Source of the DNA: Candidatus Binatia bacterium
Lineage (GTDB): Bacteria > Desulfobacterota > Binatia > HRBIN30
Length of the DNA: 64,000 nt
Assembly (NCBI GenBank): GCA_036382395.1
Contig: DASVHW010000043.1
Span: 7,678 to 71,677, forward strand
Direction: 5' to 3'
Shown here: one piece after another, positions 19,649 through 58,872 of the stretch
How the letters are laid out: the number at the start of each line of letters is the position of its first letter
Position numbering within the stretch: the first letter of the stretch is position 1
The notes under the pieces: generated by a model
What the model saw: the letters and a program-made list of their open reading frames with translations, nothing else
What the model was told of the DNA's origin: nothing
The model's database searches: none
Position numbers and translations under genes: made by a program

Positions 19649-19653
19649 GGCAT

Positions 19654-44925: not shown

Positions 44926-44962
44926 GTTCCCTCTCCCTTTGGGAGACGGTCAGGGTGAGGGC
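44926..44962. repeat. REP-like palindromic intergenic repeat, copy 2 (gttCCCTCTCCCtttGGGAGAcGGtcagggtgagggcc).
   Basis: Matches the 39792..39828 element at ~33 of 37 positions. Lies between the FAD-oxidase stop and the glpK start. Confidence 0.6.
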
Positions 44963-44989
44963 CAACAAGCCACGCCTCACGGACACGAC

Positions 44990-46408: not shown

Positions 46409-48095
46409 GCGCCACGCGCGGTGTGGTTTCGGCTTCCAACTCCGGCGAGAAGGTGTTCACTTCGCGTACGTGGCGCCGATAGTTTGTGAGCTCCGCGGCG
46501 ATACGACGGGCATCCCAACCCAAGAGATCGCCCATCAGCCGTGCCGCCTCGGGGGCCACGGTGAGACCGTTGTCGACATCCCACAAGAACAGACGCGCCC
46601 GCCGTTCCAGAAAGTCCTGCAACGTCATGGCCATCTCCTCGCGAACGGCGTAGGCCACCTCGCCGCGGGTGACCGCCTTGTCGGCGGCGCACCGGCGCGC
46701 CAACGCCGGGTCCGCCACCATGGCCTCCACCATCCGTTCCGCATTACTGCCGTAGAGACCCACCAACCGGTCGACGATGTCGGTCGCCACCTGCGGCCAA
46801 CGTTTCTTCAGGCGCGTGACGAAGGCCTCGATATCATCACCGGTCTCACCGCCAGACAACGGCACGCTGTCGCTGTCGCCCTTCCTCTCAGGCAGCCGTT
46901 CCCCGCCGGCCGACAGACGCTCGACCGCCATCTCCACCACGCGCTCCGCCATCTTTCGATACGTCGTCAGTTTGCCGCCGGCAATTGAGATCATCCCCGT
47001 CGGACCGACCATGATTTCATCCCGGCGTGAGATTTCCGTCGGCGTCTTGCCTTCCTGGTGCAACAGTGGCCGAAGCCCGGCCCACGCGCCAACGACGTCG
47101 CTCTCGGTGAGTCGATCCACATCGAACGTTGCGTTGGCGGCATCGAGCAGGTACGTGACATCCTCCGCCGTGATCCACGGGTCGTCGTAGCGCCCGTCGT
47201 AATCCGTGTCGGTTGTGCCGATATAGACGACGTCGCCGTGCGGCACGACGAAGACCGCGCGGTGATCGGAGGTGTTCATGACTACGATGCGTGAAACCGT
47301 CAGCCGCTCGCGCCGCAGGACAAGATGAATTCCCTTGGTAAGATGCAGGCGCGGGGTCTCTCCTTCCCCCTCGAGCAGGCGGACGGCATCGACCCAGGGA
47401 CCGGCGGCGTTGACGATCACCTTGGCACGCACGGAGCACTCGCCGCCGGTCATGGAGTCTTTGACCATCGCCGCGGACAACTTGCCGTTGTCCTTGGCCA
47501 AGCCCGTGACCTCGGAGTAGTTGGTGACGACCGCACCCAGCGCGGCAGCTGACTTCAGGGTGTCGAGCACCAGGCGCGCATCATCGGTGAGATACTCGAA
47601 GTAGAGACCGGCGCCGTACAGATCCTTCGGCCGCAACAACGGTTCCAAAGCAAGCGTCTCATCACGGTTGACCATCCGATAGCGCTCGTCTTCAAGGACC
47701 CGCGCCATGCGATCGAAGGTCCACAAGCCGACGCTGAGCTTGGCATAGGTCGGGCGCGAGTGGACGGGAACGAGCATGTGAATGGGCCGCGCCAGATGGG
47801 GTGCCAGGCGCCGCAGGACGCGGCGCTCGTTCGCGGCCTCCATGACCAGACCGACATCGCCTTGCTGCAGGTAGCGGACGCCCCCGTGAATCAGCTTCGA
47901 AGATCGGCTGCTGGTGCCAACGGCAAAGTCGCGCCGTTCCACCAGAGCGACGCGCAACCCACGCAGCGCCGCATCCCGCGCGATCCCAGCACCAGTGATA
48001 CCGCCGCCGATCACCAGCACATCGAATTGATCACGCGAGAGCTGTTCGAGATTCTTGGCTCGGGTTCGGAACGAGAAATCGAGAGAACGCGCCAT
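46401..48095 (-). CDS. glpD: FAD-dependent glycerol-3-phosphate dehydrogenase.
   Basis: 'FDVLVIGGGITGAGIARDAALRGLRVALVERRDFAVGTSSRSSKLIHGGVRYL' dinucleotide-binding motif and GlpD family features. 8-nt overlap with the downstream oxidase. Confidence 0.85.
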   Translation of the reverse strand: MARSLDFSFRTRAKNLEQLSRDQFDVLVIGGGITGAGIARDAALRGLRVALVERRDFAVGTSSRSSKLIHGGVRYLQQGDVGLVMEAANERRVLRRLAPHLARPIHMLVPVHSRPTYAKLSVGLWTFDRMARVLEDERYRMVNRDETLALEPLLRPKDLYGAGLYFEYLTDDARLVLDTLKSAAALGAVVTNYSEVTGLAKDNGKLSAAMVKDSMTGGECSVRAKVIVNAAGPWVDAVRLLEGEGETPRLHLTKGIHLVLRRERLTVSRIVVMNTSDHRAVFVVPHGDVVYIGTTDTDYDGRYDDPWITAEDVTYLLDAANATFDVDRLTESDVVGAWAGLRPLLHQEGKTPTEISRRDEIMVGPTGMISIAGGKLTTYRKMAERVVEMAVERLSAGGERLPERKGDSDSVPLSGGETGDDIEAFVTRLKKRWPQVATDIVDRLVGLYGSNAERMVEAMVADPALARRCAADKAVTRGEVAYAVREEMAMTLQDFLERRARLFLWDVDNGLTVAPEAARLMGDLLGWDARRIAAELTNYRRHVREVNTFSPELEAETTPRVAHG

Positions 48096-48267: not shown

Positions 48268-48984
48268 GTGATGTTCCTTCGGGCGATACTTTTCGATTAC
48301 GGCGGCACGTTGGATGGGGCGGGCAGCCATTGGCTGCTTCGTTTCGAGGAACTGTACCGCCAATCGGGGCTCGATGTGCCATTCGAACGGCTGCGAGCCG
48401 CCTTCGATCATGCCACACAGTGCGCCTACGCGGACCCGACGGTGGCCGGGTTCGGACTGGAGACGCTCGTGCAGTATCACGTGCAGCGGCAGATGGAACA
48501 CCTCCGCATCTCCGACCCCACTCGTGCCGACATGGTGGTGGCGCGATTTCTCTACGCATCCCGGGCGGGACTGGAAGAGAGCCGCCTCGTACTCGACCGG
48601 CTCCGCCACCGTGTCGCCCTGGGAGTGATCTCGAATTTCTATGGGAATGTGCACCGGATTCTCAACGAAGCGGGGCTGGCGCCCCTACTGACCACCGTCA
48701 TTGATTCGGGCGTCGTGGGCTTGAAGAAACCCGATCCGGAGATCTTCGCCTTGGCGGTACGCCAGATCGGCTGCGCACCAGCAGAGGCGCTGTATGTCGG
48801 TGACTCCTTCGAGAAGGACATCGTTGGGGCACACATGGCCGGACTTCGCACCGCTTGGCTGGTCGGCACGACGGAACGTCCCTGTCCCCGCCCGCAGTGC
48901 GTCGACGTGCGGGTGCGCCGCCTCGCGGATGTGGAACGGATCGTCGACAGCTTCCCGAACGCCAGCGCCGCAGCTGAGTCGTAA
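48268..48984 (+). CDS. HAD-superfamily hydrolase (subfamily IA, haloacid-dehalogenase-type motif I).
   Basis: Motif I 'LFDYGGTL', motif II 'VISNF', motif III/IV 'KKPDPEIF ... YVGDSFEKDIVGA'. Confidence 0.75.
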   Translation: MMFLRAILFDYGGTLDGAGSHWLLRFEELYRQSGLDVPFERLRAAFDHATQCAYADPTVAGFGLETLVQYHVQRQMEHLRISDPTRADMVVARFLYASRAGLEESRLVLDRLRHRVALGVISNFYGNVHRILNEAGLAPLLTTVIDSGVVGLKKPDPEIFALAVRQIGCAPAEALYVGDSFEKDIVGAHMAGLRTAWLVGTTERPCPRPQCVDVRVRRLADVERIVDSFPNASAAAES

Positions 48985-48990
48985 GCGCCG

Positions 48991-49698
48991 ATGAAAGCCG
49001 GACTCATCGCTGCCGGGCTCGGCGTGCGCCTCCGCGAGCACGGCATCACGCTTCCCAAACCCCTGGTCCCCGTGGCCGGTAGAGCCTTGATCGACTACGT
49101 GCTGGGCGCCGCGGTCATGGCGGGAGTGCGTCAGATCGCGGCCATCGTCAACGAGGAGTCCAGCGGGATCGAGCAGCACTGTCAGGCGCATTGGCCGCAG
49201 CTGACATTCGAGTTTGTCCGGCGCACGACGCCAAGCTCGATGGAAAGCTTGTTCGCACTGCGCCCGTTGTTGGAAGGCGGACGGTTCGTGCTGCTGACGG
49301 TGGACGCGATTTTCGCACCGGCGGTGCTGCAAACATTCCTCAGCGCAGCAGCTGCGCGCGACGACGCACAGGGGGTGCTCGCATTGAGCGATTTCGTCGA
49401 TGATGAAAAGCCGCTCTATACGCGCATCGCGTCAGACGGCCGTATCACGGCACTGGGTGCCGACGCCCAAGGCGCCACGTTGGTCACTGCAGGATTCTAC
49501 GTGTTCGACCCAGTGATCTTCCGCGAAATCCCTCTCGCCAGGCAGTCCGGCTTCACGGCGTTGCGCCAGTTCTTGGGACACCTGCTCCAGCGGGGCTACC
49601 GTCTGTACGGCGAGCGGATTTCCAAGACCGTCGACGTCGACCGGCCGGAAGATATCGGTGTCGCCGAGGCCTTCATCCGCAGTGGATTCACAGCATGA
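48991..49698 (+). CDS. Sugar/polyol-phosphate nucleotidyltransferase (LicC/IPCT-like cytidylyltransferase fold).
   Basis: N-terminal 'MKAGLIAAGLGVRL' (G-x-G-x-R) NTP-transferase signature. 235 aa. Confidence 0.75.
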   Translation: MKAGLIAAGLGVRLREHGITLPKPLVPVAGRALIDYVLGAAVMAGVRQIAAIVNEESSGIEQHCQAHWPQLTFEFVRRTTPSSMESLFALRPLLEGGRFVLLTVDAIFAPAVLQTFLSAAAARDDAQGVLALSDFVDDEKPLYTRIASDGRITALGADAQGATLVTAGFYVFDPVIFREIPLARQSGFTALRQFLGHLLQRGYRLYGERISKTVDVDRPEDIGVAEAFIRSGFTA

Positions 49699-50504
49699 GC
49701 AAATTGGTTGGCATGACCCGTGAGCGGGTGTTCTCACCTGGCAAAGTGGAGGATGACAGCGCCATCCTCGAAGCAGCCGCCGCCCACCTGCGCGCACGGG
49801 GCCACGCCGTAACGGTGTGCCGCGCCGACGAACCCGAGTGGCCGGACCCAACGGGTGTCAGCTTGGTGTTCACCATGGCCCAAGGGGCCGCCGCGCTGGC
49901 GCGCCTGCAACACTGGCAAGCGCAGGGCGTGCGCATCATCAACAACCCGGACGGTATCCTCAATTGCCAGCGCCACCGAACGATTGCAGCCTTCGCCAAC
50001 GCAAAGATTCCGTTTCCCCAGAGTGTTCTCTTGGAGACGAGCGACGGCGCGGCTCTGCCGCAATGGGTGGCGCAGGGGGCATGGGTGAAGCGGGGGGACG
50101 TCCACGCCACCGAAGCGGGAGACGTGATCCGGATCGACAGCCGCGCCGCCGCGCGCGACGTGCTGCAGCGGCTGCAGCAGAGGGGTATCCGTACCGCCCT
50201 GGTGCAGCGGCACGTGCTGGGAACGGTGCTGAAGTTTTATGGTGTCTGGCAACGGTTCTTTCATTGCGTGCCCCCGCTCAACGGCTCGCCTCTTCCAGCC
50301 GACGTGCTCGAGCAAATGGAGGCGCTGGGCCGACGCGCGGCGCAAGCGCTGAACGTCGAAATCTACGGTGGTGATTGTGTTTACGCCGCCAACGGCGCGC
50401 TGTCCTTGATTGACTTGAACGATTGGCCCAGCTACGCTTCGTGCCGCGCTGAGGCGGCCATTGAGATAGCAGCCTATTTGCATGCGCGAGAAGCCGCAAC
50501 TTGA
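49695..50504 (+). CDS. ATP-grasp domain protein (RimK/GshB-like ligase, or ITPK1-like kinase fold).
   Basis: 'GVRIINNPDGILNCQRHRTIAAFANAKIPFPQS' pre-ATP-grasp/ATP-grasp junction, 'WVKRGDVHATEAGDV' and 'LIDLNDWPS' motifs. Start overlaps the upstream stop. Confidence 0.6.
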   Translation: MSKLVGMTRERVFSPGKVEDDSAILEAAAAHLRARGHAVTVCRADEPEWPDPTGVSLVFTMAQGAAALARLQHWQAQGVRIINNPDGILNCQRHRTIAAFANAKIPFPQSVLLETSDGAALPQWVAQGAWVKRGDVHATEAGDVIRIDSRAAARDVLQRLQQRGIRTALVQRHVLGTVLKFYGVWQRFFHCVPPLNGSPLPADVLEQMEALGRRAAQALNVEIYGGDCVYAANGALSLIDLNDWPSYASCRAEAAIEIAAYLHAREAAT

Positions 50505-51862
50505 TGGGAAAAGCTGCATCGAAGAAAGCGCCGGCCCACGATCGACTCCCCGGGCCAAAATCACGCGCCCTCATCGCCACCGAGGGTGAGTACATTGCCC
50601 CGGGACTGCAACGCATTGCCCAGCTCTCCGAAATCGCCTTGGTGGAAGGGCGTGGGTGCACGCTGGTCGATGCCGACGGCAACGAATACCTTGATTTCTT
50701 TGCGGGCGTTGCGGTCGCCAGTCTCGGCCACTCCCACCCACGGTTCGTCTCCGCGCTGATCCATCAGCTCGAAAGGCTGGCGGTGGGGAGCTTCACCAAC
50801 GAGCCGCGGACCGCATTGCTGAAACTCTTGGCGGAGCTGGCGCCGGGGGCGTTGAAACGGACCCAACTCTACAGCGGTGGGGCGGAGGCGGTCGAAGCCG
50901 CTGTTCGGTTGGCAAAATCGTACACCAAGAAGCACGAGGTCGTCGGCTTCTGGGGCGGTTTCCACGGCAAGACCGGTGGGGTGATGGGGCTGATCGGCGA
51001 TGCGTGGAAGCAGAAATGGGGGCCGCTCGCTCCAGGCACATACCTCGTGCCGTATGCCGATTGCTATCGTTGCCCCTTCAAGTTGAGCTACCCGAATTGC
51101 GGCCTGTTCTGCGTCGAATTCATGCGCAAGTCCCTCAAGACCACTACCGCAGGGGCCATCGCCGCGATCATCGTCGAGCCGATGCAGGGGACGGCGGGAA
51201 ACGTCATTCCACCACCGGAGTTCCTGCCCGCGGTGGCGGAGGTCGCGCGCGAGAACGATGCCCTCCTCATCATCGATGAAATGATCACCGGTTTCGGCCG
51301 CACCGGAAGCATGTTCGGCTGTGACCATACCGACACCGAGCCGGACGTCATGACGATCGGCAAAGGATTCGGGTCGGGGTTCCCGGTCACCGGCCTGGTC
51401 TCCACCGACGAGATCACCGCTTCCTTCCCCTTCGCCAAGCCGAGTTCCTCCTCGTCGAGCTACGGCGGCAACCCGCTGGGCGCGGCGGCGGCGCTGGCCA
51501 CCGTCGAAACGATCTTGGACGAGGAACTGGTGGAGAACTCGCAACGCGTCGGCACGGTGCTGCTGCACGAGCTGCGTCGCTTGCAGGACAAATACGAGTT
51601 CATCGGCGATGTCCGCGGCTCCGGTCTCTTGATTGGGCTCGATCTGGTGAAAGATCGGACCACGAAGCAGCCGCTGTCCTCGGCTGTCACGGAAGAAATC
51701 TTCCGAGGCGCGCTTCGGCGCGGCCTGCTGCTGATGGGGTACTTCGCGCGCGTACGCATCAATCCACCTCTCATCCTGACAGAAATGGAAGCAAGGGACG
51801 GCGTCGCCATCCTGGATGAAGTCTTTGCCGAGGTGGCGCGAACCGGCAGCTACCGGCAATGA
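50501..51862 (+). CDS. Class-III pyridoxal-phosphate aminotransferase.
   Basis: 'LIIDEMITGFGRTGSMFGCDHTDTEPDVMTIGKGFGSGFPV', with the PLP lysine in 'TIGKG'. 453 aa. Confidence 0.85.
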   Translation: MMGKAASKKAPAHDRLPGPKSRALIATEGEYIAPGLQRIAQLSEIALVEGRGCTLVDADGNEYLDFFAGVAVASLGHSHPRFVSALIHQLERLAVGSFTNEPRTALLKLLAELAPGALKRTQLYSGGAEAVEAAVRLAKSYTKKHEVVGFWGGFHGKTGGVMGLIGDAWKQKWGPLAPGTYLVPYADCYRCPFKLSYPNCGLFCVEFMRKSLKTTTAGAIAAIIVEPMQGTAGNVIPPPEFLPAVAEVARENDALLIIDEMITGFGRTGSMFGCDHTDTEPDVMTIGKGFGSGFPVTGLVSTDEITASFPFAKPSSSSSSYGGNPLGAAAALATVETILDEELVENSQRVGTVLLHELRRLQDKYEFIGDVRGSGLLIGLDLVKDRTTKQPLSSAVTEEIFRGALRRGLLLMGYFARVRINPPLILTEMEARDGVAILDEVFAEVARTGSYRQ

Positions 51863-52908
51863 CGAGAGTCCGTGATGGCGCGATCATTGGCTTCGGTAAC
51901 ATGGCAGCCAATGGTCACCTACCGGTCTGGCGCGAGCGCTCCGACTTTCGCATTGTCGCCGTAGCCGACTCGGACCCGGGCCGGCGCGCGCTGGCGGAGC
52001 AGGCCATCGCCGGCGTCCGGACGTACACGGATTACTACGAGTTGCTGCGCAGTGAGCGGTTGGATTTCGTCGACATCGCCACCCCGCCCTCGTTGCACGC
52101 GCCGGCGATCATCGCTGCGGCGCGGGCCGGTGTAGACGTATTGTGTGAAAAACCCGTCACGCCGTCGCTGCACGAATACCGCGCCGTGCGGACCGCTGTG
52201 AGCCAAGGCGGGGTGGTGTTGCACACGGTCCACAACTGGAAATACTCGGAAGCATTTCGTACGGCGCGGGGGCTGTTGGCGGCAGGCGGCCTCGGCTCGC
52301 TGCGCGCGATCTCGTTCGACACCGCGCGCAACGGCTGCGCCAGCAGCACCAGCGGCAACTGGCGCGTGCAGGCGTCCGTCGCCGGCGGCGGGATTCTCAT
52401 CGACCACGGCTGGCACACCTTCTACCTGCTGTTGGCGCTGGCAAACGAACAGCCGTGCCGGATCCGCGCCGCACTGGAGCGGCGCCGCTACGTCGATGCC
52501 GAAGTCGAAGACACCGCCGTGTGCACCATCGATTTTCCGTCGCTCGTGGCTGAGATTCGCTTGACCTGGGCCGCGAGTGAGCGCCGAACACAGTGGCGGC
52601 TCGTCGGTAACGACGGCGATCTGCTGATCGACGACGACCAGGTGGTCATGCAGGGAAAGACGGCGCGACACTCGCAGCAGTTGGCGACGGCATTGTCCGC
52701 CGGCTCCCACCACCCGGAATGGTTTGCCGGTGTGGTGGACTCGTTTCGCCAGGAGCTGGATGAACCGGAGGTGCGGGGCACGAATCAAACAGAAGCTGAG
52801 TGGTGCCTGCTCATGCTCGACCTGGCGTATGCCTCCGATGCCCGTGATTCGCGGCCAATCGACGTTCCTCGGCTCAGCGAGTGGTTTGAGGGGGGGGTGG
52901 GGAATTGA
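51859..52908 (+). CDS. Gfo/Idh/MocA-family NAD(P)-dependent oxidoreductase (inositol/sugar dehydrogenase-like).
   Basis: N-terminal Rossmann 'IIGFGNMAANGHLPVW', 'CEKP' motif, and the Gfo/Idh/MocA C-terminal domain. Confidence 0.85.
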   Translation: MTRVRDGAIIGFGNMAANGHLPVWRERSDFRIVAVADSDPGRRALAEQAIAGVRTYTDYYELLRSERLDFVDIATPPSLHAPAIIAAARAGVDVLCEKPVTPSLHEYRAVRTAVSQGGVVLHTVHNWKYSEAFRTARGLLAAGGLGSLRAISFDTARNGCASSTSGNWRVQASVAGGGILIDHGWHTFYLLLALANEQPCRIRAALERRRYVDAEVEDTAVCTIDFPSLVAEIRLTWAASERRTQWRLVGNDGDLLIDDDQVVMQGKTARHSQQLATALSAGSHHPEWFAGVVDSFRQELDEPEVRGTNQTEAEWCLLMLDLAYASDARDSRPIDVPRLSEWFEGGVGN

Positions 52909-54104
52909 AAACTGCTGTGATTCTTCCGCCGACAGCCGCAAGCTTTCAGACCGTCGCCGGCCTACCGCTGATTCAGCGCACCGTGCTGAGCGCGGCTCGA
53001 TGCGACTTCGACCGTATCGTCGTTCTCGGAAACGGACGTGCCGAGCCTCTGCGCACGCTGCTTGCCGGAGACAAGCGCACGCGTGCCGTCGAGGTGACCA
53101 AGGGCCTGTCGCAAGTCGAAGGCTCATCCGTGACTGTGATCCCGAGCGATCGCCTACTGACCGCTGCGACCCTCGCACGCGTCAATGCGGCCAGTTTGGA
53201 TGGCCGGCCGCTCCTGTTCGGTGCGGGCGGTCGCCATGACATCGCCGTGTGCCGGCCCGGGATGCTCTCTGGTATCGACCTCAACGCGCTCGCCGCACAG
53301 GGAGCCGACGCCGTGTGGGCGGCACTCCATGCGCGCGGGGCGCAGACCCTTCCGCTCGACGGGGAGGTCTGTCTGCCGGTCGGCGACGAACACTCCGCGG
53401 CCGCGGCGGAACTGGCGTTGTGCAAACGTCTGCGGGCTGACAGCGCCGCCAGTGATGGGCCGCTGGCCCACTGGATCGACCGCCGCATCTCGCTACGGAT
53501 CAGCCGCTGGCTCGCCAACCACACGCGCGTGCGGCCGAACCACATCACCATCGTCGGGACCTCGATCGGGCTGCTCGCCGCCGCCACGCTCAGTGTCGGC
53601 ACCTACTGGGCCGGAGTCGCCGGCACGCTGCTGTTTCTGTGCGCCACCATTCTCGACGGTTGCGATGGCGAGGTGGCCCGACTGACGTTCTTCGATTCCC
53701 CGTTCGGCGAGAAGTTCGATGTCATCACCGACAACATCGTGCATGTCGCGATTTTCATCGGCTTGGCGCTCGGCCTGTACCACCAAAACGCCAGCGGCCA
53801 TTACCCTCTTCTGATCTCCATCTTGCTCGGCGGATTCGCATGCGACACAGCCCTGAGCTACTTTTTCCTCGTTCGGCGGCCGGGCTTCGCCCGCAGCGGC
53901 GGCGCGCCGGTGACTTTGAAAGGCAAGGTCCGGCGGAAGCTGCTGGGCCTCTTCGAGGCCATGATGAACCGCGACTTCGCTTACCTGCTCCTCGTGCTGG
54001 CAGTGGTCGATCGCTTATACTGGTTTTTCTGGGGCGCCGCGTTCGGCACCTATCTCTTCGCGATTCTGTTAGTGTGGATTTACCGATGGCGTGATGCGGC
54101 ATGA
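52905..54104 (+). CDS. CDP-alcohol phosphatidyltransferase-family membrane enzyme with an N-terminal degenerate nucleotidyltransferase-like domain (IPCT/DIPPS-like architecture).
   Basis: C-terminal 'DGCDGEVAR ... GEKFDVITDNIVH' matches the CDP-OH-P transferase motif D-G-x2-A-R...G-x3-D-x3-D. N-terminal 'MKTAVILPP...GLPLIQR' is NTP-transferase-like but lacks the GxGxR loop. TTG start overlaps the upstream stop. Confidence 0.7.
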   Translation: MKTAVILPPTAASFQTVAGLPLIQRTVLSAARCDFDRIVVLGNGRAEPLRTLLAGDKRTRAVEVTKGLSQVEGSSVTVIPSDRLLTAATLARVNAASLDGRPLLFGAGGRHDIAVCRPGMLSGIDLNALAAQGADAVWAALHARGAQTLPLDGEVCLPVGDEHSAAAAELALCKRLRADSAASDGPLAHWIDRRISLRISRWLANHTRVRPNHITIVGTSIGLLAAATLSVGTYWAGVAGTLLFLCATILDGCDGEVARLTFFDSPFGEKFDVITDNIVHVAIFIGLALGLYHQNASGHYPLLISILLGGFACDTALSYFFLVRRPGFARSGGAPVTLKGKVRRKLLGLFEAMMNRDFAYLLLVLAVVDRLYWFFWGAAFGTYLFAILLVWIYRWRDAA

Positions 54105-54206
54105 GCACGGGCGCGGGCCGACTGACACCGTCACTCTCGTGCTCCGGCCTGCCCGGCATACGCCGATGATCCAATCCTTGGCTCTGGAGACATAGGCACA
54201 AGACGC

Positions 54207-55214
54207 ATGTTTACTCAGCGTGTATTCCGTATCGCCGAACGCCTCTTTCTCGTCGGCGGATTGATTCTGCTCGGGTTCATCCTGCGCGAGCTTGGGGTGC
54301 GGGCCGTGCTCGCCAACCTCCAGCTCGTCGGTTGGGGAATTGTCGCGCTCGTGCTTCAGGAGATGCTGGCGTACGTGGCAAACACGCTGGGCTGGCGGGC
54401 GGCTTTCCCGACTCCCCGGCCCCGGATTCCGTTCACACAGCTGCTCACCGCACGCATCGCGGGCGACGCGGTCAACTACCTCACCCCAACCGCAACCCTC
54501 GGCGGTGAATTCGTGCGGACCCGTTATTTGCGCGGCCAAGCCGAAGGCACGTCATTGGTGGCATCGGTCGCTGTCGCCAAACTGACCCAGACCATCGGCC
54601 AGATTGCGTTCGTCATCATCGGCCTGGCGTTCGTGCTCGACGATACGCCGCTTCCGTCTGCCGTCCGGCACGGCCTGTTCGTCGGATTGGCAGCGTTTTC
54701 AGCGCTGACGCTGGCACTGGTCATGGCGCAGCGCCGTGGGATGTTCGCCCCGATGCTGCGGATGGCGCAACGCCTGGGGTTGCCGGATCGGGCGCCGGAG
54801 TTCGGGCGACGTCTGCAGCGTCTGGATGCAGAGATCGCCCGTTTTCATGGTGAGGGCAACGGCGCCTTTTTCCTCTCATCGGCGAGCTTTTTCGCCGGAT
54901 GGGCCATGGGCGTCGTGGAAATTTACCTTATCCTTTGGCTGCTCGGGCTGCCCGTCAGTGTGCATCGCGCCCTCACCATCGAAGTGTTCTCGGTCGCCAT
55001 CGACGGAATGTTCTTCTTCGTGCCGGCGAAGGTGGGGACACAGGAGGGCGGAAAGGTGCTCATCTTCACCCTGCTGGGCCTCGACCCGGGCAAGGGCCTG
55101 GCGTTAGGACTCTTGCGGCGCATACGCGAACTGACCTGGGCTCTGGTGGGAATGCTGATTCTGTCACGCCAGCAAATGGCGCCGCGCCCCGTCTTCCAAC
55201 CCCTCGTCCGGTAG
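54207..55214 (+). CDS. UPF0104 / lysyl-PG-synthase-TM-domain (flippase-like) membrane protein, HpnL-like.
   Basis: Multi-TM protein of ~335 aa with 'FFFVPAKVGTQEGG' near the C-terminus, typical of the TIGR00374/HpnL family. Immediately precedes an HpnK-like gene. Confidence 0.55.
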   Translation: MFTQRVFRIAERLFLVGGLILLGFILRELGVRAVLANLQLVGWGIVALVLQEMLAYVANTLGWRAAFPTPRPRIPFTQLLTARIAGDAVNYLTPTATLGGEFVRTRYLRGQAEGTSLVASVAVAKLTQTIGQIAFVIIGLAFVLDDTPLPSAVRHGLFVGLAAFSALTLALVMAQRRGMFAPMLRMAQRLGLPDRAPEFGRRLQRLDAEIARFHGEGNGAFFLSSASFFAGWAMGVVEIYLILWLLGLPVSVHRALTIEVFSVAIDGMFFFVPAKVGTQEGGKVLIFTLLGLDPGKGLALGLLRRIRELTWALVGMLILSRQQMAPRPVFQPLVR

Positions 55215-55320
55215 CGATGCGGGCTGCGCCCAGCGTCCGTTCGGCGGGACCGCTCCCCGCCCGCACTCCAGAGGCTTCCGGCGGACGTGTTGGGTCGCTT
55301 CGGGTGGCTACCAACGGCAC

Positions 55321-56247
55321 TTGACGGAGATGCGAAAAGTCGCAGGCGCAATGCACGAGCGGCCCATGTCCCGAACCCCCGAGCGAAGGCGGCTGATCGT
55401 ATCCGGTGACGACTTTGGTATGTCGCCGGGCGTCAACGCCGGAATCATCGCGGGGCATCGCAACGGCATTTTGACCGATGCCAGCCTGATGGTGAACGGG
55501 ACCGCCTTTGCAGAGGCGGTCGATCTCGCACGCGCCACCCCGACACTGGCGGTCGGCCTGCACCTCGTTCTGGTGCAGGGCCGCGCCACGTCGGCGGCGC
55601 ACCAGGTGCCCGGCCTAGTGGATGCCGCCGGCATGTTCCGGAACAACTCGGTGGCGGCGGGATTGCGCTACTTCTTCGCCCCCGGAATGCGCGCCCAAAT
55701 TGAACGCGAAGTGAGTGCTCAACTGGAAAAATACCTCGCCACCGGGCTGCCGCTGGCGCACGTGGACGGTCACCTCAATATCCACATGCACCCGACCGTC
55801 CTGATGATCCTGTTGCGGCTCGCCTCACGCTACGGCGTCCGTGCCATGCGCCTGCCGCGCGAACCGTGGCGGATTTCGCTGCGGCTGGACCGGCGTGAAC
55901 GCCGGCGTAAGCTGGTCGAAGCGCTGATCTTCCGCAACCTCACGCGTTACGCCCACCCGCGGCTAGCGGCGCATGGTATCCGCCATCCTGATCAGCTGTT
56001 CGGACTGCACCAGAGCGGCCACGTCAACGAACCATACCTGCTCAGTGTATTGAGCGCGTTGCCCGCGGGCCTCACCGAAGTCTACTGCCACCCTGCCTTC
56101 ACCGACGACGAGGCACGACGGTGGCGTCCAGCAGATTACGAAAGCGAGGTCGAACTGGCGGCGTTGACCAGCCCCCGCGTTCGCCGGGCGCTACGCACGA
56201 GCGCGATCGAGCCCATGAGCTACGAGGACCTTGCCTCCTCGGGCTGA
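55321..56247 (+). CDS. YdjC/ChbG-family carbohydrate deacetylase, HpnK-like.
   Basis: 'LIVSGDDFGMSPGVNAGIIAGHRNGILTDASLMVNG' and 'AVGLHLVL', 'HVDGHLNIHMHP' YdjC motifs. Start ambiguous (55321 or 55366). Confidence 0.75.
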   Translation: MTEMRKVAGAMHERPMSRTPERRRLIVSGDDFGMSPGVNAGIIAGHRNGILTDASLMVNGTAFAEAVDLARATPTLAVGLHLVLVQGRATSAAHQVPGLVDAAGMFRNNSVAAGLRYFFAPGMRAQIEREVSAQLEKYLATGLPLAHVDGHLNIHMHPTVLMILLRLASRYGVRAMRLPREPWRISLRLDRRERRRKLVEALIFRNLTRYAHPRLAAHGIRHPDQLFGLHQSGHVNEPYLLSVLSALPAGLTEVYCHPAFTDDEARRWRPADYESEVELAALTSPRVRRALRTSAIEPMSYEDLASSG

Positions 56248-57092
56248 GTACTTCCAGGGGCCGCGACCGAGCCTTCGCCGAAACCCGCCAGCAGAGCGGC
56301 GCCTGCGATCGCCAGTGTGAAGGCCAGTGGCCGTAGCACCGCCGCCGGTCCCTCGCTCGGCAGGGCTTCGCCAAACACCATGATGCCGCCCACGATGGGC
56401 ACCAGATTCGACAGGCCGGAATAGAGCGGCATCACCACCACCCCGCGGCCGCTCTGTAATGCCGCCTGCATCAGGGCAAATCCGACGATATTGGCGCCCG
56501 TAGTGAGAACGATGTAGATCACCGCATCCTGGGAGGCGAACGACCCCTCGTCGGCAAGCCCCTTGGCATAGACGGACGCCAAGCCCAAGATCAATCCGCT
56601 GGCGACGCTCATGCCGATGGCACGGCCCGGCTGCTGATCGGCAAACCACGCCAACGCGGAGAGGGCGAGCACCGCCACCGAAAACAGAAACAGGTCATGC
56701 GCCGCGCGGTGTGCCGCGGGATCGCTCGACAACGATACGCTCAACGTGATCAGCGAGGCGGTGATCAGCAAGACACCGAGCCACTCGACCGGCCGCGGCT
56801 CTTCCCCCAGTCCCACCACGGAAAGAATCACGAAGAGGACGATGCCACCGTTCAGCGCCGTGTGCACGATGGAGAGCGGGGCGGCGCGTAGCGCCATGAA
56901 GTAGAACCCGTAACCGACGATCTGCAGCGCCAGACCGATCATCCACAACGGATCGCGAACGAAGGCCCACCAGGCGCTGAGGCGCCAGCCACCACCGAGG
57001 GACGGCAGATGCTCCGCCTGACGCTTCATGAGATACAAGCCGAGCGTCAGCAAGGTACTGGCAACAATGGCTAACAGGGAAGCGAACTCCAT
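56220..57092 (-). CDS. EamA/DMT-superfamily membrane transporter.
   Basis: 10-TM hydrophobic protein (290 aa) with two EamA-like halves. 3' end overlaps the hpnK-like gene on the other strand. Confidence 0.55.
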   Translation of the reverse strand: MEFASLLAIVASTLLTLGLYLMKRQAEHLPSLGGGWRLSAWWAFVRDPLWMIGLALQIVGYGFYFMALRAAPLSIVHTALNGGIVLFVILSVVGLGEEPRPVEWLGVLLITASLITLSVSLSSDPAAHRAAHDLFLFSVAVLALSALAWFADQQPGRAIGMSVASGLILGLASVYAKGLADEGSFASQDAVIYIVLTTGANIVGFALMQAALQSGRGVVVMPLYSGLSNLVPIVGGIMVFGEALPSEGPAAVLRPLAFTLAIAGAALLAGFGEGSVAAPGSTQPEEARSS

Positions 57093-57184
57093 ACCCAGGC
57101 GGGTCGCAGAACCTCAGTCCGACGTCAAGCGCGCGCAACAGATCGGCAACGGCATCCGCCCCGTGAGCGCCAACGAGCCGGCAC

Positions 57185-58648
57185 TCACGACGCAGGAGAC
57201 GTCGTCGAGTTGGCTGCGGCCTTACCGTTGCCAGCTGCGCGGCGCTTGCGCATGGTGGACAGGAATTCGCGGGCTTCCCGCAACATGCGTTTGCGCTCAT
57301 CGCGGCTCTTCAGCATTTTCTTCGCCGCCTTCATGAAATATCTCGGCCGGAAATAGTACTTGCGGTAGAAGCGCTCGACGGCCGCGAAAATCTCCTCGGC
57401 CGAAGCCTCCGGATAACTGACCGTGCACCGCTGGTAGCCGGCTTCGTCGTTGTAGACGTCCTGCACGAGGAAGTTGTGCTCTTTCACATATTCATAGAAG
57501 TGCGTGCCCGGATAGGGCGATGCCAGCGACACCTGGATGGTTTCCGGGTCCATTTCGCGGGCGAAACGGATCGACTCCTCGATGGTCGCCAGCGTTTCGC
57601 CGGGGAGGCCGACGATGAACGTGCCGTGAATGAGAATGCCGAGATCGTGGCAATCCTTCGTGAAGCGGCGTGCCCGTTCGAGGCTGACGCCCTTCTTGAT
57701 GTTCTGCAAGATCTGCTCGTTGCCGGACTCGTACCCGACCACGAACAAGCGCAGCCCACCGTCCTTGAGAACCCGCAACGTCTCCCGGTCCACGTTGGCG
57801 CGCGCATTGGTCGACCAGCACAACCCGAGCGGTTTGAACAACTGCGCCAGCTGCCTGGCACGAGGTGGATCCGCGGTGAACGTATCATCGTCGAAGAAGA
57901 TCTCTTTCATCTCCGGGAAGAGGCGCTTCATGTCCTTGACTTCCTCGAAGACGTTCTCCGAACTGCGGGTGCGGTAGGAATGGCCGGTCGTGACCTGCGG
58001 CCAGAGACAGAACGTACAGCGCGCGGGGCAGCCGCGGCCGGTGTACATGGAGACGTAGGGATACTGGCAATAGGGGCTGTTGTACTTCAGGTACTGAAGG
58101 TCGCGATGGTAAATCTGGGTCACGAAAGGCATCGCGTCGAGTTCCGCGGTGGTCAGCGGCAAGCGCTCTGGATTGTGAATCACGTTGCCGTTTTGCCGAT
58201 AGCTGATGCCTGGAATGCGTGACCAGTCATGGCCCAGGGCAACGTCCCGAACGGCGTAGTCGAATTCCTTGCGCGCCACCAGGTCGATGGCCGACGACGC
58301 TTTCAGAGAGGCTTCCGCCTGCACCGTGACATGGCCGCCGACAAACGCGATGGTACACTTCGGATTGGCATCCTTGATCATTTCCGCCGTGCGCGCGTCG
58401 AGCCGGAACGAAGGCGTGCTGGTGTGCACGACGACGAAGTCGTAGGCGCTGGCGATGGCCACCGTTTGCTCCTGGTTGAGGTGCTCGGGCGGCGCATCGA
58501 GGACGCGGCTGTCCGCCACCAGCCCGGCCGGGTAGCAGAGCCAGGTGGGATACCAGAAAGACCACACTTCGCGGGTCGCCTGGTAGCGTGATCCTGCCCC
58601 GCCGTCGAAGTCCTCGTAGGCAGGCGGGTTCAGAAAGAGCGTCTTCAT
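57185..58648 (-). CDS. B12-binding radical SAM protein, hopanoid-associated HpnJ-like.
   Basis: N-terminus 'MKTLFLNPPAYEDFDGGAGSRYQATREVWSFWYPTWL' is characteristic of HpnJ. Radical-SAM motif 'CPARCTFC'. Start at the ATG at 58648; the track ORF extends to 58753. Confidence 0.75.
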   Translation of the reverse strand: MKTLFLNPPAYEDFDGGAGSRYQATREVWSFWYPTWLCYPAGLVADSRVLDAPPEHLNQEQTVAIASAYDFVVVHTSTPSFRLDARTAEMIKDANPKCTIAFVGGHVTVQAEASLKASSAIDLVARKEFDYAVRDVALGHDWSRIPGISYRQNGNVIHNPERLPLTTAELDAMPFVTQIYHRDLQYLKYNSPYCQYPYVSMYTGRGCPARCTFCLWPQVTTGHSYRTRSSENVFEEVKDMKRLFPEMKEIFFDDDTFTADPPRARQLAQLFKPLGLCWSTNARANVDRETLRVLKDGGLRLFVVGYESGNEQILQNIKKGVSLERARRFTKDCHDLGILIHGTFIVGLPGETLATIEESIRFAREMDPETIQVSLASPYPGTHFYEYVKEHNFLVQDVYNDEAGYQRCTVSYPEASAEEIFAAVERFYRKYYFRPRYFMKAAKKMLKSRDERKRMLREAREFLSTMRKRRAAGNGKAAANSTTSPAS

Positions 58649-58872
58649 ACAACTCCCATTGTGCCTCGTCCGATTGCTATTTCGAGCCAGCAGAGTAACC
58701 GAGCCCACCCGCCCGATCAAGAGCGCATCGATCCGAGCGCATCGATCCGCCACTCTCGGCCGTCACGGCAATGAGGATCGATGGCGCCCTCTCGGCGCAC
58801 ACGCACCAGAGTCGCGGAAACGCGTATCTCAGCCGGCTTTTCCTCTCAAGCCGGCTGTGATCTTATACCCCA

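What the first reader, a model, noticed from the sequence alone, without database searches (positions are those of the whole stretch)
48268..58648. Candidate undescribed head-group pathway: aminocyclitol-like phosphodiester module joined to HpnJ/K/L hopanoid-tailoring homologues, with no HpnI
Eight tightly overlapping plus-strand genes encode a HAD phosphatase, a nucleotidyltransferase, an ATP-grasp enzyme, a class-III aminotransferase, a Gfo/Idh/MocA dehydrogenase, an IPCT/DIPPS-like CDP-alcohol phosphotransferase, an HpnL-like flippase-family protein and an HpnK-like YdjC deacetylase. A DMT transporter and an HpnJ-like B12 radical SAM gene follow on the opposite strand.

From established knowledge:
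- Gfo/Idh/MocA dehydrogenase plus aminotransferase is the standard route to amino-cyclitols and amino-sugars (for example inositol to inosose to inosamine).
- Nucleotidyltransferase plus CDP-alcohol phosphotransferase builds polyol phosphodiesters (DIP or glycerophospho-inositol type).
- HpnI (a GT2), HpnK and HpnJ convert bacteriohopanetetrol to the aminocyclitol 'cyclitol ether'.

In this window the GT2 HpnI is absent and a phosphotransferase/aminocyclitol module sits in its place. My inference is that this is a non-canonical route to an amino-cyclitol(-phosphate) polar head group for a hopanoid or other lipid, or a novel compatible solute.
Basis: partly seen in the sequence, partly recalled or inferred. 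Interest (0 to 1): 0.75.

Follow-up and report, generated by a model that had tools for sequence, protein, structure and literature searches.

The report
Uncharacterised membrane-lipid head-group gene cluster
An uncultured soil bacterium (Binatia) carries a ten-gene cluster that joins enzymes for activating and transferring a sugar-alcohol phosphate to enzymes otherwise known only for decorating hopanoids (bacterial sterol-like lipids); the same partnership, sometimes as single fused proteins, recurs in several phyla and probably builds a membrane-lipid head group that has not been described.

Summary
Window 48268-58753 carries HAD, nucleotidyltransferase, ATP-grasp, class-III aminotransferase, Gfo/Idh/MocA, an IPCT/DIPPS-like CDP-alcohol phosphotransferase (CDPOH), an HpnL-like protein and HpnK on the plus strand, then DMT and HpnJ on the minus strand. 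There is no HpnI, SHC or inositol-phosphate synthase (MIPS) in the 64 kb.

The window is from a Candidatus Binatia MAG. CDPOH plus HpnL is the constant core in at least seven phylum-level labels. Two modules attach to it:
- the five-gene HAD-to-GFO module (Binatia, Myxococcota, Planctomycetota, Elusimicrobia, one gammaproteobacterium);
- HpnI/J/K.

Fused proteins tie the parts together: HpnJ::CDPOH (at least 28 clusters), NTase::ATP-grasp, HAD::NTase::ATP-grasp and ATP-grasp::CDPOH. MIPS flanks the core in eight loci. HpnN-, HpnM- and MlaA-like transporter genes, or SHC, flank it in others.

Best reading: a Kennedy-type CDP-(amino)inositol route that attaches a phosphodiester head group to a membrane lipid, probably an extended hopanoid, and is coupled to HpnK/J tailoring and HpnL flipping. 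The product, the anchor lipid and the ATP-grasp role (kinase or ligase) are inferred. No paper in the searched library links hopanoids with a CDP-alcohol phosphotransferase. I rate it a new variant of a known kind, interest about 0.7.

The parts
48268..48984 (+). HAD-IA family hydrolase (238 aa); putative phosphatase of the module
   Evidence: PF00702/PF13419. Best NCBIfam hits are the DREG-2/CTE7/YjjG families, all below cut-off. Motif I is FDYGGTL: the nucleophile Asp is present, but Asp+2 is Gly in all orthologues. Occurs fused as HAD::NTase::ATP-grasp in P0481.
48991..49698 (+). Stand-alone sugar/inositol-1-phosphate-type nucleotidyltransferase (235 aa)
   Evidence: PF00483/PF12804. Intact signature LIAAGLGVRL...LPKPLVPVAG. 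Weak best hits are MurU 4y7t and IPCT 2xme/4mnd and NF041135 IPCT/DIPPS at 47.6 bits. NTase::ATP-grasp fusions exist in six 50%-identity clusters.
49695..50504 (+). Orphan ATP-grasp enzyme (269 aa); kinase or carboxylate-amine ligase
50501..51862 (+). Class-III (GabT-like) PLP aminotransferase (453 aa)
   Evidence: PF00202 at 330 bits. Closest PDB entry is 7vno, then GabT entries. The equivalents of K268, D239 and R398 are conserved. R141->K and E211->T in all cluster orthologues. It is the most conserved gene of the block, at 53-86% identity across phyla.
51859..52908 (+). Gfo/Idh/MocA NAD(P) dehydrogenase (349 aa)
   Evidence: PF01408, PF22725 and PF02894. Best NCBIfam is iolG at 74 bits, cut-off 355. 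GxGxxA, EKP and DHGWH motifs are present. Closest PDB entries are aldose-aldose oxidoreductase and GFOR at about 67 bits.
52905..54104 (+). IPCT/DIPPS-like CDP-alcohol phosphotransferase (399 aa) with a degenerate N-terminal nucleotidyltransferase-fold domain
54207..55214 (+). HpnL-like / LPG_synthase_TM (MprF flippase-domain family) membrane protein (335 aa)
   Evidence: PF03706 at 96.7 bits. TIGR03476 HpnL at 187.6 bits versus cut-off 195.65. 30% identical to the Mycetohabitans hpnL-position protein. It sits beside the window-type (DGCDGEVAR-motif) CDPOH in every locus that also carries the HAD-GFO module or Hpn genes, except L072 and the truncated L046; some loci with a more distant CDPOH homologue have no HpnL.
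55321..56247 (+). HpnK (YdjC-family carbohydrate deacetylase, 308 aa)
   Evidence: TIGR03473 at 339 bits, cut-off 232.6. PF04794 at 259 bits. 42% identical to Mycetohabitans HpnK. Follows HpnL in about 20 Binatia-type loci, including some without HpnJ.
56220..57092 (-). DMT/EamA-type transporter (290 aa), co-transcribed with HpnJ
   Evidence: Weak PF00892/PF05653 and NF038012 hits, all below cut-off. Found between HpnK and HpnJ in the window and L002-4, L010, L011, L024, L026, L028.
57185..58753 (-). HpnJ, B12-binding radical SAM enzyme (522-aa ORF; HMM match from residue 36)
   Evidence: TIGR03471 at 712.5 bits, cut-off 577.6. PF04055 plus PF02310. 52% identical to Mycetohabitans HpnJ.
58873..60096 (+). 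Omp85-family outer-membrane protein; possible accessory, membership uncertain
   Evidence: PF01103. NF047779 at 143 bits, cut-off 200. An orthologue sits next to the cluster in L003 and L006, and an Omp85 gene lies beside MIPS/HpnL in the Elusimicrobia locus L060.
43408..48095 (-). Divergent glpK / alkyl-DHAP-synthase-like FAD oxidase / glpD-like operon; conserved neighbour, membership uncertain
   Evidence: NCBIfam/Pfam. The FAD oxidase's best PDB hits are alkyl-DHAP synthases 2uuu at 218 bits and 4bby at 205 bits. The trio is conserved beside the block in L002, L004, L014, L020, L021, L026 and L027.

Best explanation
The cluster is an operon for building and exporting a polar head group on a membrane lipid through CDP-alcohol (Kennedy-type) chemistry.

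Proposed order. All steps are inferred unless marked otherwise.
1. Inositol phosphate comes from a MIPS encoded elsewhere in this genome. The HAD enzyme dephosphorylates it, or instead dephosphorylates the final product.
2. The Gfo/Idh/MocA dehydrogenase oxidises the cyclitol to a keto-cyclitol.
3. The class-III aminotransferase converts that to an amino-cyclitol, using glutamate.
4. The ATP-grasp enzyme either phosphorylates the amino-cyclitol (kinase reading, favoured by the NTase fusions) or ligates a carboxylate to its amine (ligase reading, favoured by the fold ranking).
5. The stand-alone nucleotidyltransferase makes the CDP-activated alcohol.
6. The IPCT/DIPPS-like membrane phosphotransferase forms the phosphodiester on a lipid-bound or inositol-phosphate acceptor. 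Its own nucleotidyltransferase domain has decayed.
7. HpnK (deacetylase) and HpnJ (radical SAM) tailor a hexosamine-derived part of the same lipid.
8. The HpnL-like MprF-flippase-type protein moves the amine-bearing lipid across the inner membrane.

The lipid anchor is most likely an extended hopanoid (bacteriohopanetetrol or its glycoside), but this is the weakest link.

What is shown here: gene content, conservation, domain folds and catalytic motifs, the fusions, and the MIPS, HpnN-like and SHC neighbourhoods. Substrates, products and order of steps are inferred.
For: 1. Family and fold assignments. The CDPOH catalytic motif is invariant. The NTase, GFO and AT3 catalytic residues are intact.

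2. Conservation. The HAD-NTase-ATP-grasp-AT3-GFO-CDPOH-HpnL order recurs in about 27 loci labelled Binatia, Myxococcota, Planctomycetota, Elusimicrobia and Ectothiorhodospiraceae.

3. Fusions.
- HpnJ::CDPOH in two MAGs from two phyla. Both ORFs are uninterrupted, and the HpnJ part of the L076 protein scores 761 bits on TIGR03471.
- The same fusion in at least 28 clusters at 90% identity, alongside HpnI::HpnJ and HpnJ::HpnK fusions.
- NTase::ATP-grasp in six clusters, plus HAD::NTase::ATP-grasp and ATP-grasp::CDPOH.

4. Inositol link.
- MIPS lies beside the core in L015, L029, L031, L038, L043, L060, L050 and L077.
- The closest CDPOH relatives by HMM and by fold use inositol-1-phosphate: DIPPS, archaetidylinositol-phosphate synthase and PIP synthase.
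- GFO's best equivalog hit is iolG, though weak.

5. Lipid and hopanoid link.
- HpnJ and HpnK pass their equivalog cut-offs.
- A true HpnI (330.5 bits, cut-off 310) sits with CDPOH-HpnL-HpnJ in other loci.
- HpnN-like RND, MlaA-like and HpnM/MlaC-like genes flank the block in Binatia locus L015. HpnN-like genes also flank it in L071 and L076.
- An SHC-MIPS-bifunctional IPCT/DIPPS arrangement with HpnN and HpnM is seen in L050. Its relatives L085 (86%) and L086 (73%) keep SHC, HpnN and HpnM beside the bifunctional enzyme, L086 with MIPS as well.
- A preprint reports that HpnJ domains were found only in genomes that contain SHC and HpnH (10.1101/2025.07.29.667474).

6. Precedent. PMC9246714 proposes MIPS + NTP-transferase + CDP-alcohol phosphatidyltransferase + HAD, with an LPG-synthase homologue nearby, as an unconfirmed CDP-inositol route to inositol lipids.

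7. Logic of the module. Phosphatase, Gfo-family dehydrogenase, aminotransferase and kinase is the order of the early scyllo-inosamine-phosphate steps of streptidine biosynthesis (my own knowledge, not tested here).
Against: - No shc, hpnH, hpnG, hpnI or MIPS lies in the 64-kb window. The hopanoid anchor and the inositol input therefore rest on other loci.
- The five-gene module with CDPOH-HpnL occurs without any HpnI/J/K in Myxococcota, Planctomycetota and Elusimicrobia. In Myxococcota it sits with MacB-type ABC and TolC-like genes. The head-group pathway therefore does not need Hpn tailoring.
- Some Binatia loci keep HpnK but have no HpnJ within 10 kb.
- HpnK needs an N-acetyl-hexosamine substrate in the canonical pathway, yet no glycosyltransferase or acetyltransferase is in the block.
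- The alkyl-DHAP-synthase-like neighbour points to ether glycerolipids instead.
- HpnL is below its cut-off.
- The HAD lacks the Asp+2 general acid.
- Inosose aminotransferases in the aminocyclitol pathways I know of are DegT-type, not class III (my own knowledge).
- All GFO, NTase and AT3 equivalog scores are far below cut-off.
- The SHC adjacency is confined to one lineage.
Confidence: 0.45

Rival explanations
1. This is a glycerolipid or sphingolipid inositol-lipid pathway of the Bacteroides vulgatus/Prevotella 'alternative' type. CDP-inositol or CDP-aminoinositol is transferred to diacylglycerol, alkylglycerol or ceramide. HpnK, HpnJ and the HpnL-like protein act on that head group, and no hopanoid is involved.
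For: - The gene set NTase + CDP-alcohol PT + HAD + LPG-synthase-like + MIPS matches the cluster proposed in PMC9246714.
- The module occurs without Hpn genes in Myxococcota. According to PMC9246714, Myxococcus xanthus makes ceramide phosphoinositol.
- The divergent glpK / alkyl-DHAP-synthase-like / glpD operon is conserved beside the block in at least 8 Binatia loci.
- No shc or hpnH is in the window.
Against: - HpnJ and HpnK score as equivalogs of the hopanoid enzymes.
- A true HpnI, HpnN-like, HpnM-like and MlaA-like genes, or SHC, flank the core elsewhere.
- A preprint reports HpnJ only in SHC/HpnH genomes.
- The extra ATP-grasp/AT3/GFO trio is not part of the Bacteroides cluster as described in PMC9246714.
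Confidence: 0.25
2. Two independent pathways merely sit side by side. One is a canonical BHT-cyclitol-ether branch (HpnJ, HpnK, HpnL, with hpnI elsewhere in the genome). The other is a separate inositol-derived pathway (HAD through CDPOH).
For: - The module and HpnJ/K occur independently of each other in different lineages.
- HpnL and HpnK are separated from the six tightly packed genes by gaps of about 100 nt.
- HpnJ is on the other strand.
- hpnI could lie outside the window (not testable here).
Against: - HpnJ::CDPOH fusion proteins exist in at least 28 clusters.
- CDPOH sits directly beside HpnL in nearly all loci, including those with HpnI/J/K and no module.
- The arrangement is conserved across phyla, and no terminator-like sites above chance lie within the block.
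Confidence: 0.12
3. The cluster makes a soluble di-inositol-phosphate-like or amino-cyclitol phosphodiester compatible solute, as IPCT/DIPPS does in hyperthermophiles.
For: - MIPS + NTase + DIPPS-like phosphotransferase + phosphatase is the DIP pathway (my own knowledge).
- The top fold hit is the A. fulgidus IPCT/DIPPS.
- Generic MIPS plus IPCT/DIPPS pairs are common in metagenomes, 33 of 80 loci.
- DIPPS is itself membrane-embedded although its product is soluble (my own knowledge).
Against: - The window-type CDPOH is paired with a flippase-family membrane protein in nearly all loci that carry the module or Hpn genes.
- Lipid transporters are frequent neighbours: HpnN-like RND, MlaA/C-like and MacB/TolC-like.
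- CDPOH is fused to the lipid-tailoring enzyme HpnJ.
- The carriers are mesophilic soil and groundwater MAGs by their record titles.
Confidence: 0.07

Closest known systems
Archaeal/Thermotoga IPCT/DIPPS pathway for di-myo-inositol phosphate (MIPS, CTP:inositol-1-P cytidylyltransferase, DIPP synthase, phosphatase)
   Same: - Intact CDP-alcohol phosphotransferase motif.
- An NTase and a putative phosphatase sit in the same operon.
- MIPS lies beside related loci.
   Different: - The NTase-fold domain of the window protein has lost GxGxR and PKPL, and a separate NTase gene is present.
- The score on NF041135 is 65.6 bits against a cut-off of 580.
- Extra ATP-grasp, aminotransferase, dehydrogenase, flippase-like and Hpn genes are present.
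- The hosts are mesophilic bacteria, and the product is probably a lipid.
Proposed 'alternative' inositol-lipid cluster of Bacteroides vulgatus/Prevotella (Heaver et al. 2022, PMC9246714), itself unconfirmed
   Same: NTP-transferase, CDP-alcohol phosphatidyltransferase, HAD hydrolase, a lysyl-PG-synthase-family neighbour and MIPS, with a Kennedy-type CDP-inositol logic.
   Different: - No sequence comparison with the Bacteroides genes was possible here.
- The window adds ATP-grasp, class-III aminotransferase, Gfo/Idh/MocA, HpnK, DMT and HpnJ.
- The window has no MIPS.
Canonical HpnI-HpnK-HpnJ(-HpnL) route to bacteriohopanetetrol cyclitol ether (Burkholderia, Zymomonas; reference locus Mycetohabitans pBRH01, L082)
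   Same: - HpnJ and HpnK pass the equivalog cut-offs and are 52% and 42% identical to the reference.
- An HpnL-family protein is adjacent (one search shows hpnI-J-K-L contiguous in the reference).
   Different: - No HpnI, shc, hpnH or hpnG in the window.
- HpnL is just below its cut-off and only 30% identical.
- A CDP-alcohol phosphotransferase is an added, sometimes fused, partner that no paper in the searched library mentions.
Early streptidine steps to scyllo-inosamine phosphate: inositol-phosphate phosphatase, Gfo-family inositol dehydrogenase, aminotransferase, kinase (my own knowledge)
   Same: The same four chemical steps could be assigned to HAD, GFO, AT3 and the ATP-grasp enzyme.
   Different: - The enzyme families differ: class III instead of DegT-type aminotransferase, ATP-grasp instead of APH-type kinase, HAD instead of IMPase-type phosphatase.
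- No activity was tested.
- The product would be nucleotide-activated and transferred rather than amidinated.
MprF (lysyl-phosphatidylglycerol synthase/flippase)
   Same: The HpnL-like protein belongs to the MprF flippase-domain family, PF03706. The predicted cargo would also be an amine-bearing lipid.
   Different: There is no aminoacyl-tRNA-dependent synthase domain. The score on the MprF equivalog is 25 bits against a cut-off of 600.

Membership tests
HpnJ (TIGR03471) | Score at or above the curated equivalog cut-off, with B12-binding and radical SAM domains | tested here: met
   712.5 bits against 577.6. PF02310 plus PF04055. 52% identical to Mycetohabitans HpnJ.
HpnJ (TIGR03471) | Genomic association with shc/hpnH/hpnI (hopanoid producer) | tested here: not met
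   None of these lies in the 64-kb window or in the +/-10 kb flanks of window-type loci. The rest of the genome could not be searched.
HpnJ (TIGR03471) | [quoted passage not shown] | not testable with these tools
   This function is known only from a knock-out in Burkholderia (PMC13459092).
HpnK (TIGR03473) | Score at or above cut-off; YdjC fold family | tested here: met
   339 bits against 232.6. PF04794 at 259 bits.
HpnL (TIGR03476) | Score at or above the curated cut-off | tested here: not met
   187.6 bits against 195.65, so it is borderline. PF03706 passes at 96.7 bits against 33.4.
Canonical HpnIJK(L) module | An HpnI GT2 glycosyltransferase is present | tested here: not met
   No tblastn hit in the window with three HpnI queries at E<=1e-5. 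HpnI is present in other CDPOH-HpnL loci, for example L016 at 330.5 bits against 310.
IPCT/DIPPS bifunctional enzyme (NF041135) | Equivalog score | tested here: not met
   65.6 bits against 580, matching the C-terminal domain only.
IPCT/DIPPS bifunctional enzyme (NF041135) | Two-domain fold: cytidylyltransferase domain plus six-helix CDP-alcohol phosphotransferase domain | tested here: met
   [not shown]
IPCT/DIPPS bifunctional enzyme (NF041135) | Active nucleotidyltransferase signature (GxGxR, PKPL) in the N-domain | tested here: not met
   Absent from the window protein and from all DGCDGEVAR-type homologues except L050.
CDP-alcohol phosphotransferase (PF01066) | Motif Dx2DGx2ARx8Gx3Dx3D | tested here: met
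   D251, D254, G255, A258, R259, G268, D272 and D276 are invariant in 14 and in 37 sequences.
Bacteroides/Prevotella alternative inositol-lipid cluster | NTase + CDP-alcohol PT + HAD (+ LPG-synthase-like) clustered with MIPS | tested here: inconclusive
   The first four are present. MIPS is absent from the window but adjacent in eight related loci. No Bacteroides sequences were available for direct comparison.
Inositol 2-dehydrogenase IolG (TIGR04380) | Equivalog score | tested here: not met
   74 bits against 355. The general Gfo/Idh/MocA motifs are present.
GabT-type class-III aminotransferase | Equivalog score and the distal carboxylate site (R141, E211 in E. coli GabT) | tested here: not met
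   TIGR00700 at 282.6 bits against 506.65. R141->K and E211->T, while K268, D239 and R398 are kept.
RimK-family ATP-grasp ligase (TIGR00768) | Family score | tested here: not met
   [not shown]
HAD phosphatase | Motif I DxD (nucleophile plus Asp+2 general acid) | tested here: not met
   The motif is FD[YFL]GGTL. Asp+2 is Gly in the window protein and in every orthologue where the motif could be located.

The most novel reading that the evidence does not exclude
The cluster makes a new class of composite hopanoid in which a phosphodiester links the hopanoid side chain, or its cyclitol ether, to an inositol-derived amino-cyclitol. One mechanistic version is as follows. The sugar-1-phosphate-type NTase activates the phospho-ribosylhopane expected from HpnG phosphorolysis to CDP-ribosylhopane, a hopanoid analogue of CDP-diacylglycerol. 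The DIPPS/PIPS-like phosphotransferase then couples it to (amino)inositol phosphate. HpnL then flips the product. This would give HpnL and the CDP-alcohol phosphotransferase their first functions in hopanoid biology. It would also predict phospho-BHPs in soils and sediments that have so far gone undetected.
Probability: 0.15. Interest if true: 0.85.

Novelty: new variant of a known kind. Interest (0 to 1): 0.7.

Why it matters
- Hopanoid side-chain chemistry underlies widely used geochemical biomarkers, yet HpnL has no known function (PMC12583986 and the preprint 10.1101/2025.07.29.667474).
- No phosphodiester-linked or inositol-linked hopanoid was found in the searched literature.
- A conserved, sometimes physically fused, partnership between HpnJ and a CDP-alcohol phosphotransferase gives a concrete, testable route to such lipids. 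It also suggests a role for HpnL as flippase of amine-bearing head groups.
- Independently of the anchor, the HAD-NTase-ATP-grasp-aminotransferase-dehydrogenase module would be a new way to make a nucleotide-activated amino-cyclitol. It would extend the still unconfirmed bacterial CDP-inositol lipid pathway to uncultured soil phyla: Binatia, Myxococcota, Planctomycetota, Elusimicrobia, Methylomirabilota and Gemmatimonadota.
- The orphan ATP-grasp family has no Pfam model and is a clean marker for the module.

Tried and rejected
- Searching for hopanoid core genes in the window. I used tblastn with the A. acidocaldarius SHC (my recalled sequence, verified against PDB 1gsz) and with HpnI. I also ran Pfam on all remaining ORFs. 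Nothing was found.
- Sequence search of the ATP-grasp enzyme against PDB. No significant hit, so the fold search was needed.
- Using the GabT active-site residues to read the aminotransferase substrate. This shows only that the distal site differs (R141K, E211T). It does not name a substrate.
- 'HpnI and the five-gene module are mutually exclusive, so the module replaces HpnI.' I rejected this as a general rule. L038 and L058 carry both, and the Binatia pattern may reflect only two lineages.
- Promoter and terminator scan. Uninformative.
- Foldseek against afdb50. Not available.
- Literature searches for hopanoid plus CDP-alcohol, bacteriohopane plus inositol, Binatia plus hopanoid, and inosamine lipids. 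None returned a description of this system.
- Metagenome scan with the L050 bifunctional enzyme. SHC adjacency appears only in its two close relatives. The remaining hits are generic MIPS plus IPCT/DIPPS pairs.

Full report

The plus-strand genes are 48268-48984, 48991-49698, 49695-50504, 50501-51862, 51859-52908, 52905-54104, 54207-55214 and 55321-56247. The minus-strand genes are 56220-57092 and 57185-58753. All have GC3 of 0.75-0.80.

Pfam and NCBIfam confirm most family calls:
- HAD, NTP_transferase, Aminotran_3 (330 bits) and Gfo/Idh/MocA.
- CDP-OH_P_transf, only at residues 210-309 of a 399-aa protein. Its best NCBIfam hit is the bifunctional IPCT/DIPPS at 65.6 bits.
- LPG_synthase_TM, with HpnL TIGR03476 at 187.6 bits, just under the 195.65 cut-off.
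- HpnK TIGR03473 at 339 bits (cut-off 232.6).
- A weak DMT/EamA protein.
- HpnJ TIGR03471 at 712.5 bits (cut-off 577.6).

Only the first six genes are tightly packed. HpnL and HpnK follow gaps of about 100 nt.

No HpnI-like glycosyltransferase, squalene-hopene cyclase or inositol-phosphate synthase is in the 64 kb. The rest of the window is housekeeping: acyl-CoA carboxylase, LarC, NAD-glutamate dehydrogenase, Nuo subunits, sigma-70 and a phosphate transporter.

**2. Where is it from, and is it conserved?**

The phosphotransferase (CDPOH) is 100% identical to a protein of a Candidatus Binatia MAG. It has 581 homologues, the listed ones almost all about 399 aa long. A scan of one genome per species returned 80 loci. 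A tblastn table of the window proteins against them shows a modular picture.

- CDPOH plus the HpnL-like gene is the constant core.
- The five genes HAD-NTase-ATP-grasp-AT3-GFO always travel together. They sit next to the core in about 19 Binatia-type loci. They also do so in loci labelled Myxococcaceae/Myxococcota, Planctomycetota, Elusimicrobia and Ectothiorhodospiraceae.
- HpnK follows HpnL in nearly all Binatia-type loci.
- HpnJ, with the DMT gene, is present in only about half of them.
- Other Binatia, Elusimicrobia, Gemmatimonadetes, Methylomirabilia and Rokubacteria loci have CDPOH-HpnL with HpnJ, usually HpnK, and a genuine HpnI (L016 copy 330.5 bits, cut-off 310). These loci lack the five-gene module.
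- Two loci, L038 and L058, have everything.

So CDPOH is not simply a replacement for HpnI.

**3. Are the parts functionally coupled?**

Yes, by fused proteins. In L076 (Methylomirabilia) and L071 (Gemmatimonadetes) a single uninterrupted ORF of about 900 aa encodes HpnJ followed by the CDP-alcohol phosphotransferase domain. In L076 the HpnJ part scores 761 bits on TIGR03471.

A database search with that protein finds at least 28 distinct clusters with the same PF04055+PF01066 architecture. They sit next to HpnI::HpnJ and HpnJ::HpnK fusions.

An exhaustive profile search with the ATP-grasp family finds only 456 clusters at E<=1e-30 among 1.84 billion representatives. Among these are NTase::ATP-grasp (six clusters), HAD::NTase::ATP-grasp and ATP-grasp::CDPOH fusions.

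The chain HAD - NTase - ATP-grasp - CDPOH - HpnJ - HpnI/HpnK is therefore linked by gene fusion as well as by synteny. This argues strongly against two unrelated pathways lying side by side.

**4. What does the chemistry look like?**

The N-domain has lost the GxGxR and PKPL signatures in every DGCDGEVAR-type homologue except L050. The separate NTase gene keeps them (LIAAGLGVRL...LPKPLVPVAG). This looks like a bifunctional IPCT/DIPPS ancestor whose activation step moved to a stand-alone gene.

*Substrate hints.* The nearest characterised relatives of CDPOH all use inositol-1-phosphate as one substrate: DIPPS, archaetidylinositol-phosphate synthase and PIP synthase.

MIPS genes lie beside the core in L015, L029, L031, L043, L038 and L060, and beside the more distant L050 and L077.

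*The other enzymes.*
- GFO has its catalytic motifs. Its best, though weak, equivalog hit is inositol 2-dehydrogenase.
- AT3 keeps the PLP lysine and the alpha-carboxylate arginine, but replaces GabT R141 and E211 with Lys and Thr in all orthologues.
- The HAD keeps the nucleophile but not the Asp+2 general acid, so 'phosphatase' is uncertain.

*Best-fitting scheme (inference).* Inositol phosphate is dephosphorylated, oxidised, transaminated and re-phosphorylated, or alternatively acylated, by the ATP-grasp enzyme. It is then CDP-activated by the NTase and coupled by CDPOH.

This mirrors the phosphatase, dehydrogenase, aminotransferase and kinase order of early streptidine biosynthesis (my own knowledge). 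It also mirrors the CDP-inositol route proposed, but not confirmed, for Bacteroides vulgatus/Prevotella. That cluster likewise contains an NTP-transferase, a CDP-alcohol phosphatidyltransferase, a HAD hydrolase and a nearby lysyl-PG-synthase homologue (PMC9246714).

**5. Which lipid?**

*For a hopanoid:*
- HpnJ and HpnK pass the equivalog cut-offs. They are 52% and 42% identical to the proteins of a canonical hpnI-J-K-L locus.
- A true HpnI accompanies CDPOH-HpnL-HpnJ elsewhere.
- HpnN-like RND transporters (530-575 bits on TIGR03480, the best hit but below cut-off) flank the core in L015, L071 and L076. In the Binatia locus L015 they sit with MlaA-like and HpnM/MlaC-like genes.
- In L050 an SHC (45% identical to the A. 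acidocaldarius enzyme) lies with HpnN and HpnM next to MIPS and the one bifunctional, fully intact IPCT/DIPPS of this subfamily.
- Two metagenome relatives, L085 and L086, keep SHC, HpnN and HpnM beside the bifunctional enzyme. L086 also keeps MIPS.
- A recent preprint finds HpnJ domains only in genomes with SHC and HpnH, and states that HpnL's function is unknown. PMC12583986 agrees on HpnL.

*Against a hopanoid:*
- Nothing hopanoid-specific beyond J, K and L is in the window.
- The module occurs without any Hpn gene in Myxococcota, next to MacB-type ABC and TolC-like genes and a second CDP-alcohol phosphotransferase paralogue.
- The divergent neighbour of the block in at least 8 Binatia loci is glpK, an FAD oxidase and glpD. 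The oxidase's best PDB matches are alkyl-DHAP synthases. This hints at ether glycerolipids.
- HpnK's canonical substrate needs a GlcNAc transferase, and the block lacks one.

**6. Known or new?**

Searches of 8 million papers and preprints covered hopanoid plus CDP-alcohol, bacteriohopane plus inositol, Binatia plus hopanoid, and inosamine lipids. None returned a description of this system.

Each enzyme family is familiar, and the NTase/CDPOH/HAD/flippase-like core has a proposed analogue in Bacteroidetes. The following appear to be undescribed:
- the addition of the ATP-grasp/aminotransferase/dehydrogenase trio;
- the decay of the IPCT domain;
- the recurrent, sometimes fused, partnership with HpnJ, HpnK and HpnI.

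I class it as a new variant of a known kind.

**7. Verdict.**

It is right that this is an undescribed head-group pathway joining CDP-alcohol and aminocyclitol-type chemistry to Hpn tailoring enzymes. It is wrong, or at least unproven, that the module replaces HpnI.

My confidence that the cluster makes a phosphodiester-linked, inositol-derived (probably aminated) head group on a membrane lipid, coupled to HpnK/J/L, is about 0.45. The hopanoid anchor is the least secure element.

Interest is 0.7. The system is widespread in uncultured phyla, directly testable, and bears on the open questions of HpnL function and hidden bacteriohopanepolyol diversity.

Noticed in passing
window 43408-48095 (minus strand): A divergent operon of glpK, an FAD-linked oxidase and a glpD-like gene. 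The oxidase's best PDB hits are alkyl-DHAP synthases (2uuu at 218 bits, 4bby at 205 bits), ahead of D-lactate dehydrogenase. The trio is conserved beside the block in L002, L004, L014, L020, L021, L026 and L027. It may indicate an ether-lipid link.
   Followed up: partly
L050 1490-12433; L085; L086: A Methylomirabilota-type locus with the order HpnM, HpnN-like, HpnM, SHC, MIPS, a fully intact bifunctional IPCT/DIPPS (243 bits on NF041135) and a radical SAM gene. Two metagenome relatives (86% and 73% identical) keep SHC, HpnN and HpnM beside the bifunctional enzyme, L086 with MIPS as well. This places an inositol-phosphate activating enzyme inside a hopanoid gene cluster.
   Followed up: partly
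L076 7982-10729; L071 2238-4901; P0241-P0268: HpnJ::CDP-alcohol phosphotransferase fusion proteins of about 880 aa in Methylomirabilia/Rokubacteria and Gemmatimonadetes. The same search also found HpnI::HpnJ (P0271, P0275, P0276, P0299, P0330) and HpnJ::HpnK (P0302, P0320, P0333) fusions.
   Followed up: yes
P0369, P0380, P0437, P0445, P0449, P0464, P0481, P0480: The orphan ATP-grasp family has no Pfam model. It occurs fused as NTase::ATP-grasp, HAD::NTase::ATP-grasp (802 aa) and ATP-grasp::CDP-OH phosphotransferase (700 aa).
   Followed up: yes
L031 1-15000; L043; L058; L072; L042: Myxococcota versions of the block carry MIPS, a second CDP-alcohol phosphotransferase paralogue (motif DGVDGKLAR, about 440 aa), a MacB-type ABC/FtsX pair, a TolC-like OEP and an 800-aa protein with no Pfam hit. 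This suggests export of the product to the outer membrane.
   Followed up: partly
window 58873-60096; L003; L006; L060 7654-9150: An Omp85-family gene lies directly after HpnJ in the window and in two Binatia relatives. In an Elusimicrobia locus an Omp85 gene lies between MIPS and HpnL.
   Followed up: no
window 179-7609: Two adjacent giant membrane proteins (1592 and 878 aa) combine PMT_2/GT-C glycosyltransferase, DUF2298 and NHL-repeat domains.
   Followed up: no
window 14430-17107 (minus strand): A second class-III aminotransferase lies next to a class I/II aminotransferase (alpha-oxoamine-synthase-like). It could be BioA/BioF, or a sphingolipid-type pair. Not resolved.
   Followed up: no
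window 18398-20589 (minus strand): Two consecutive ORFs (416 and 311 aa) with good coding signal but no Pfam hit.
   Followed up: no
L011 (DATKMS010000301.1): This contig is labelled Candidatus Margulisiibacteriota but carries the whole block at 57-85% protein identity to the Binatia window. The bin is probably mislabelled or contaminated.
   Followed up: no
window 56220-57092 and related loci: The DMT/EamA transporter gene is found only together with HpnJ, on the same strand, in window-type loci. It may supply or export something specific to the HpnJ step.
   Followed up: no
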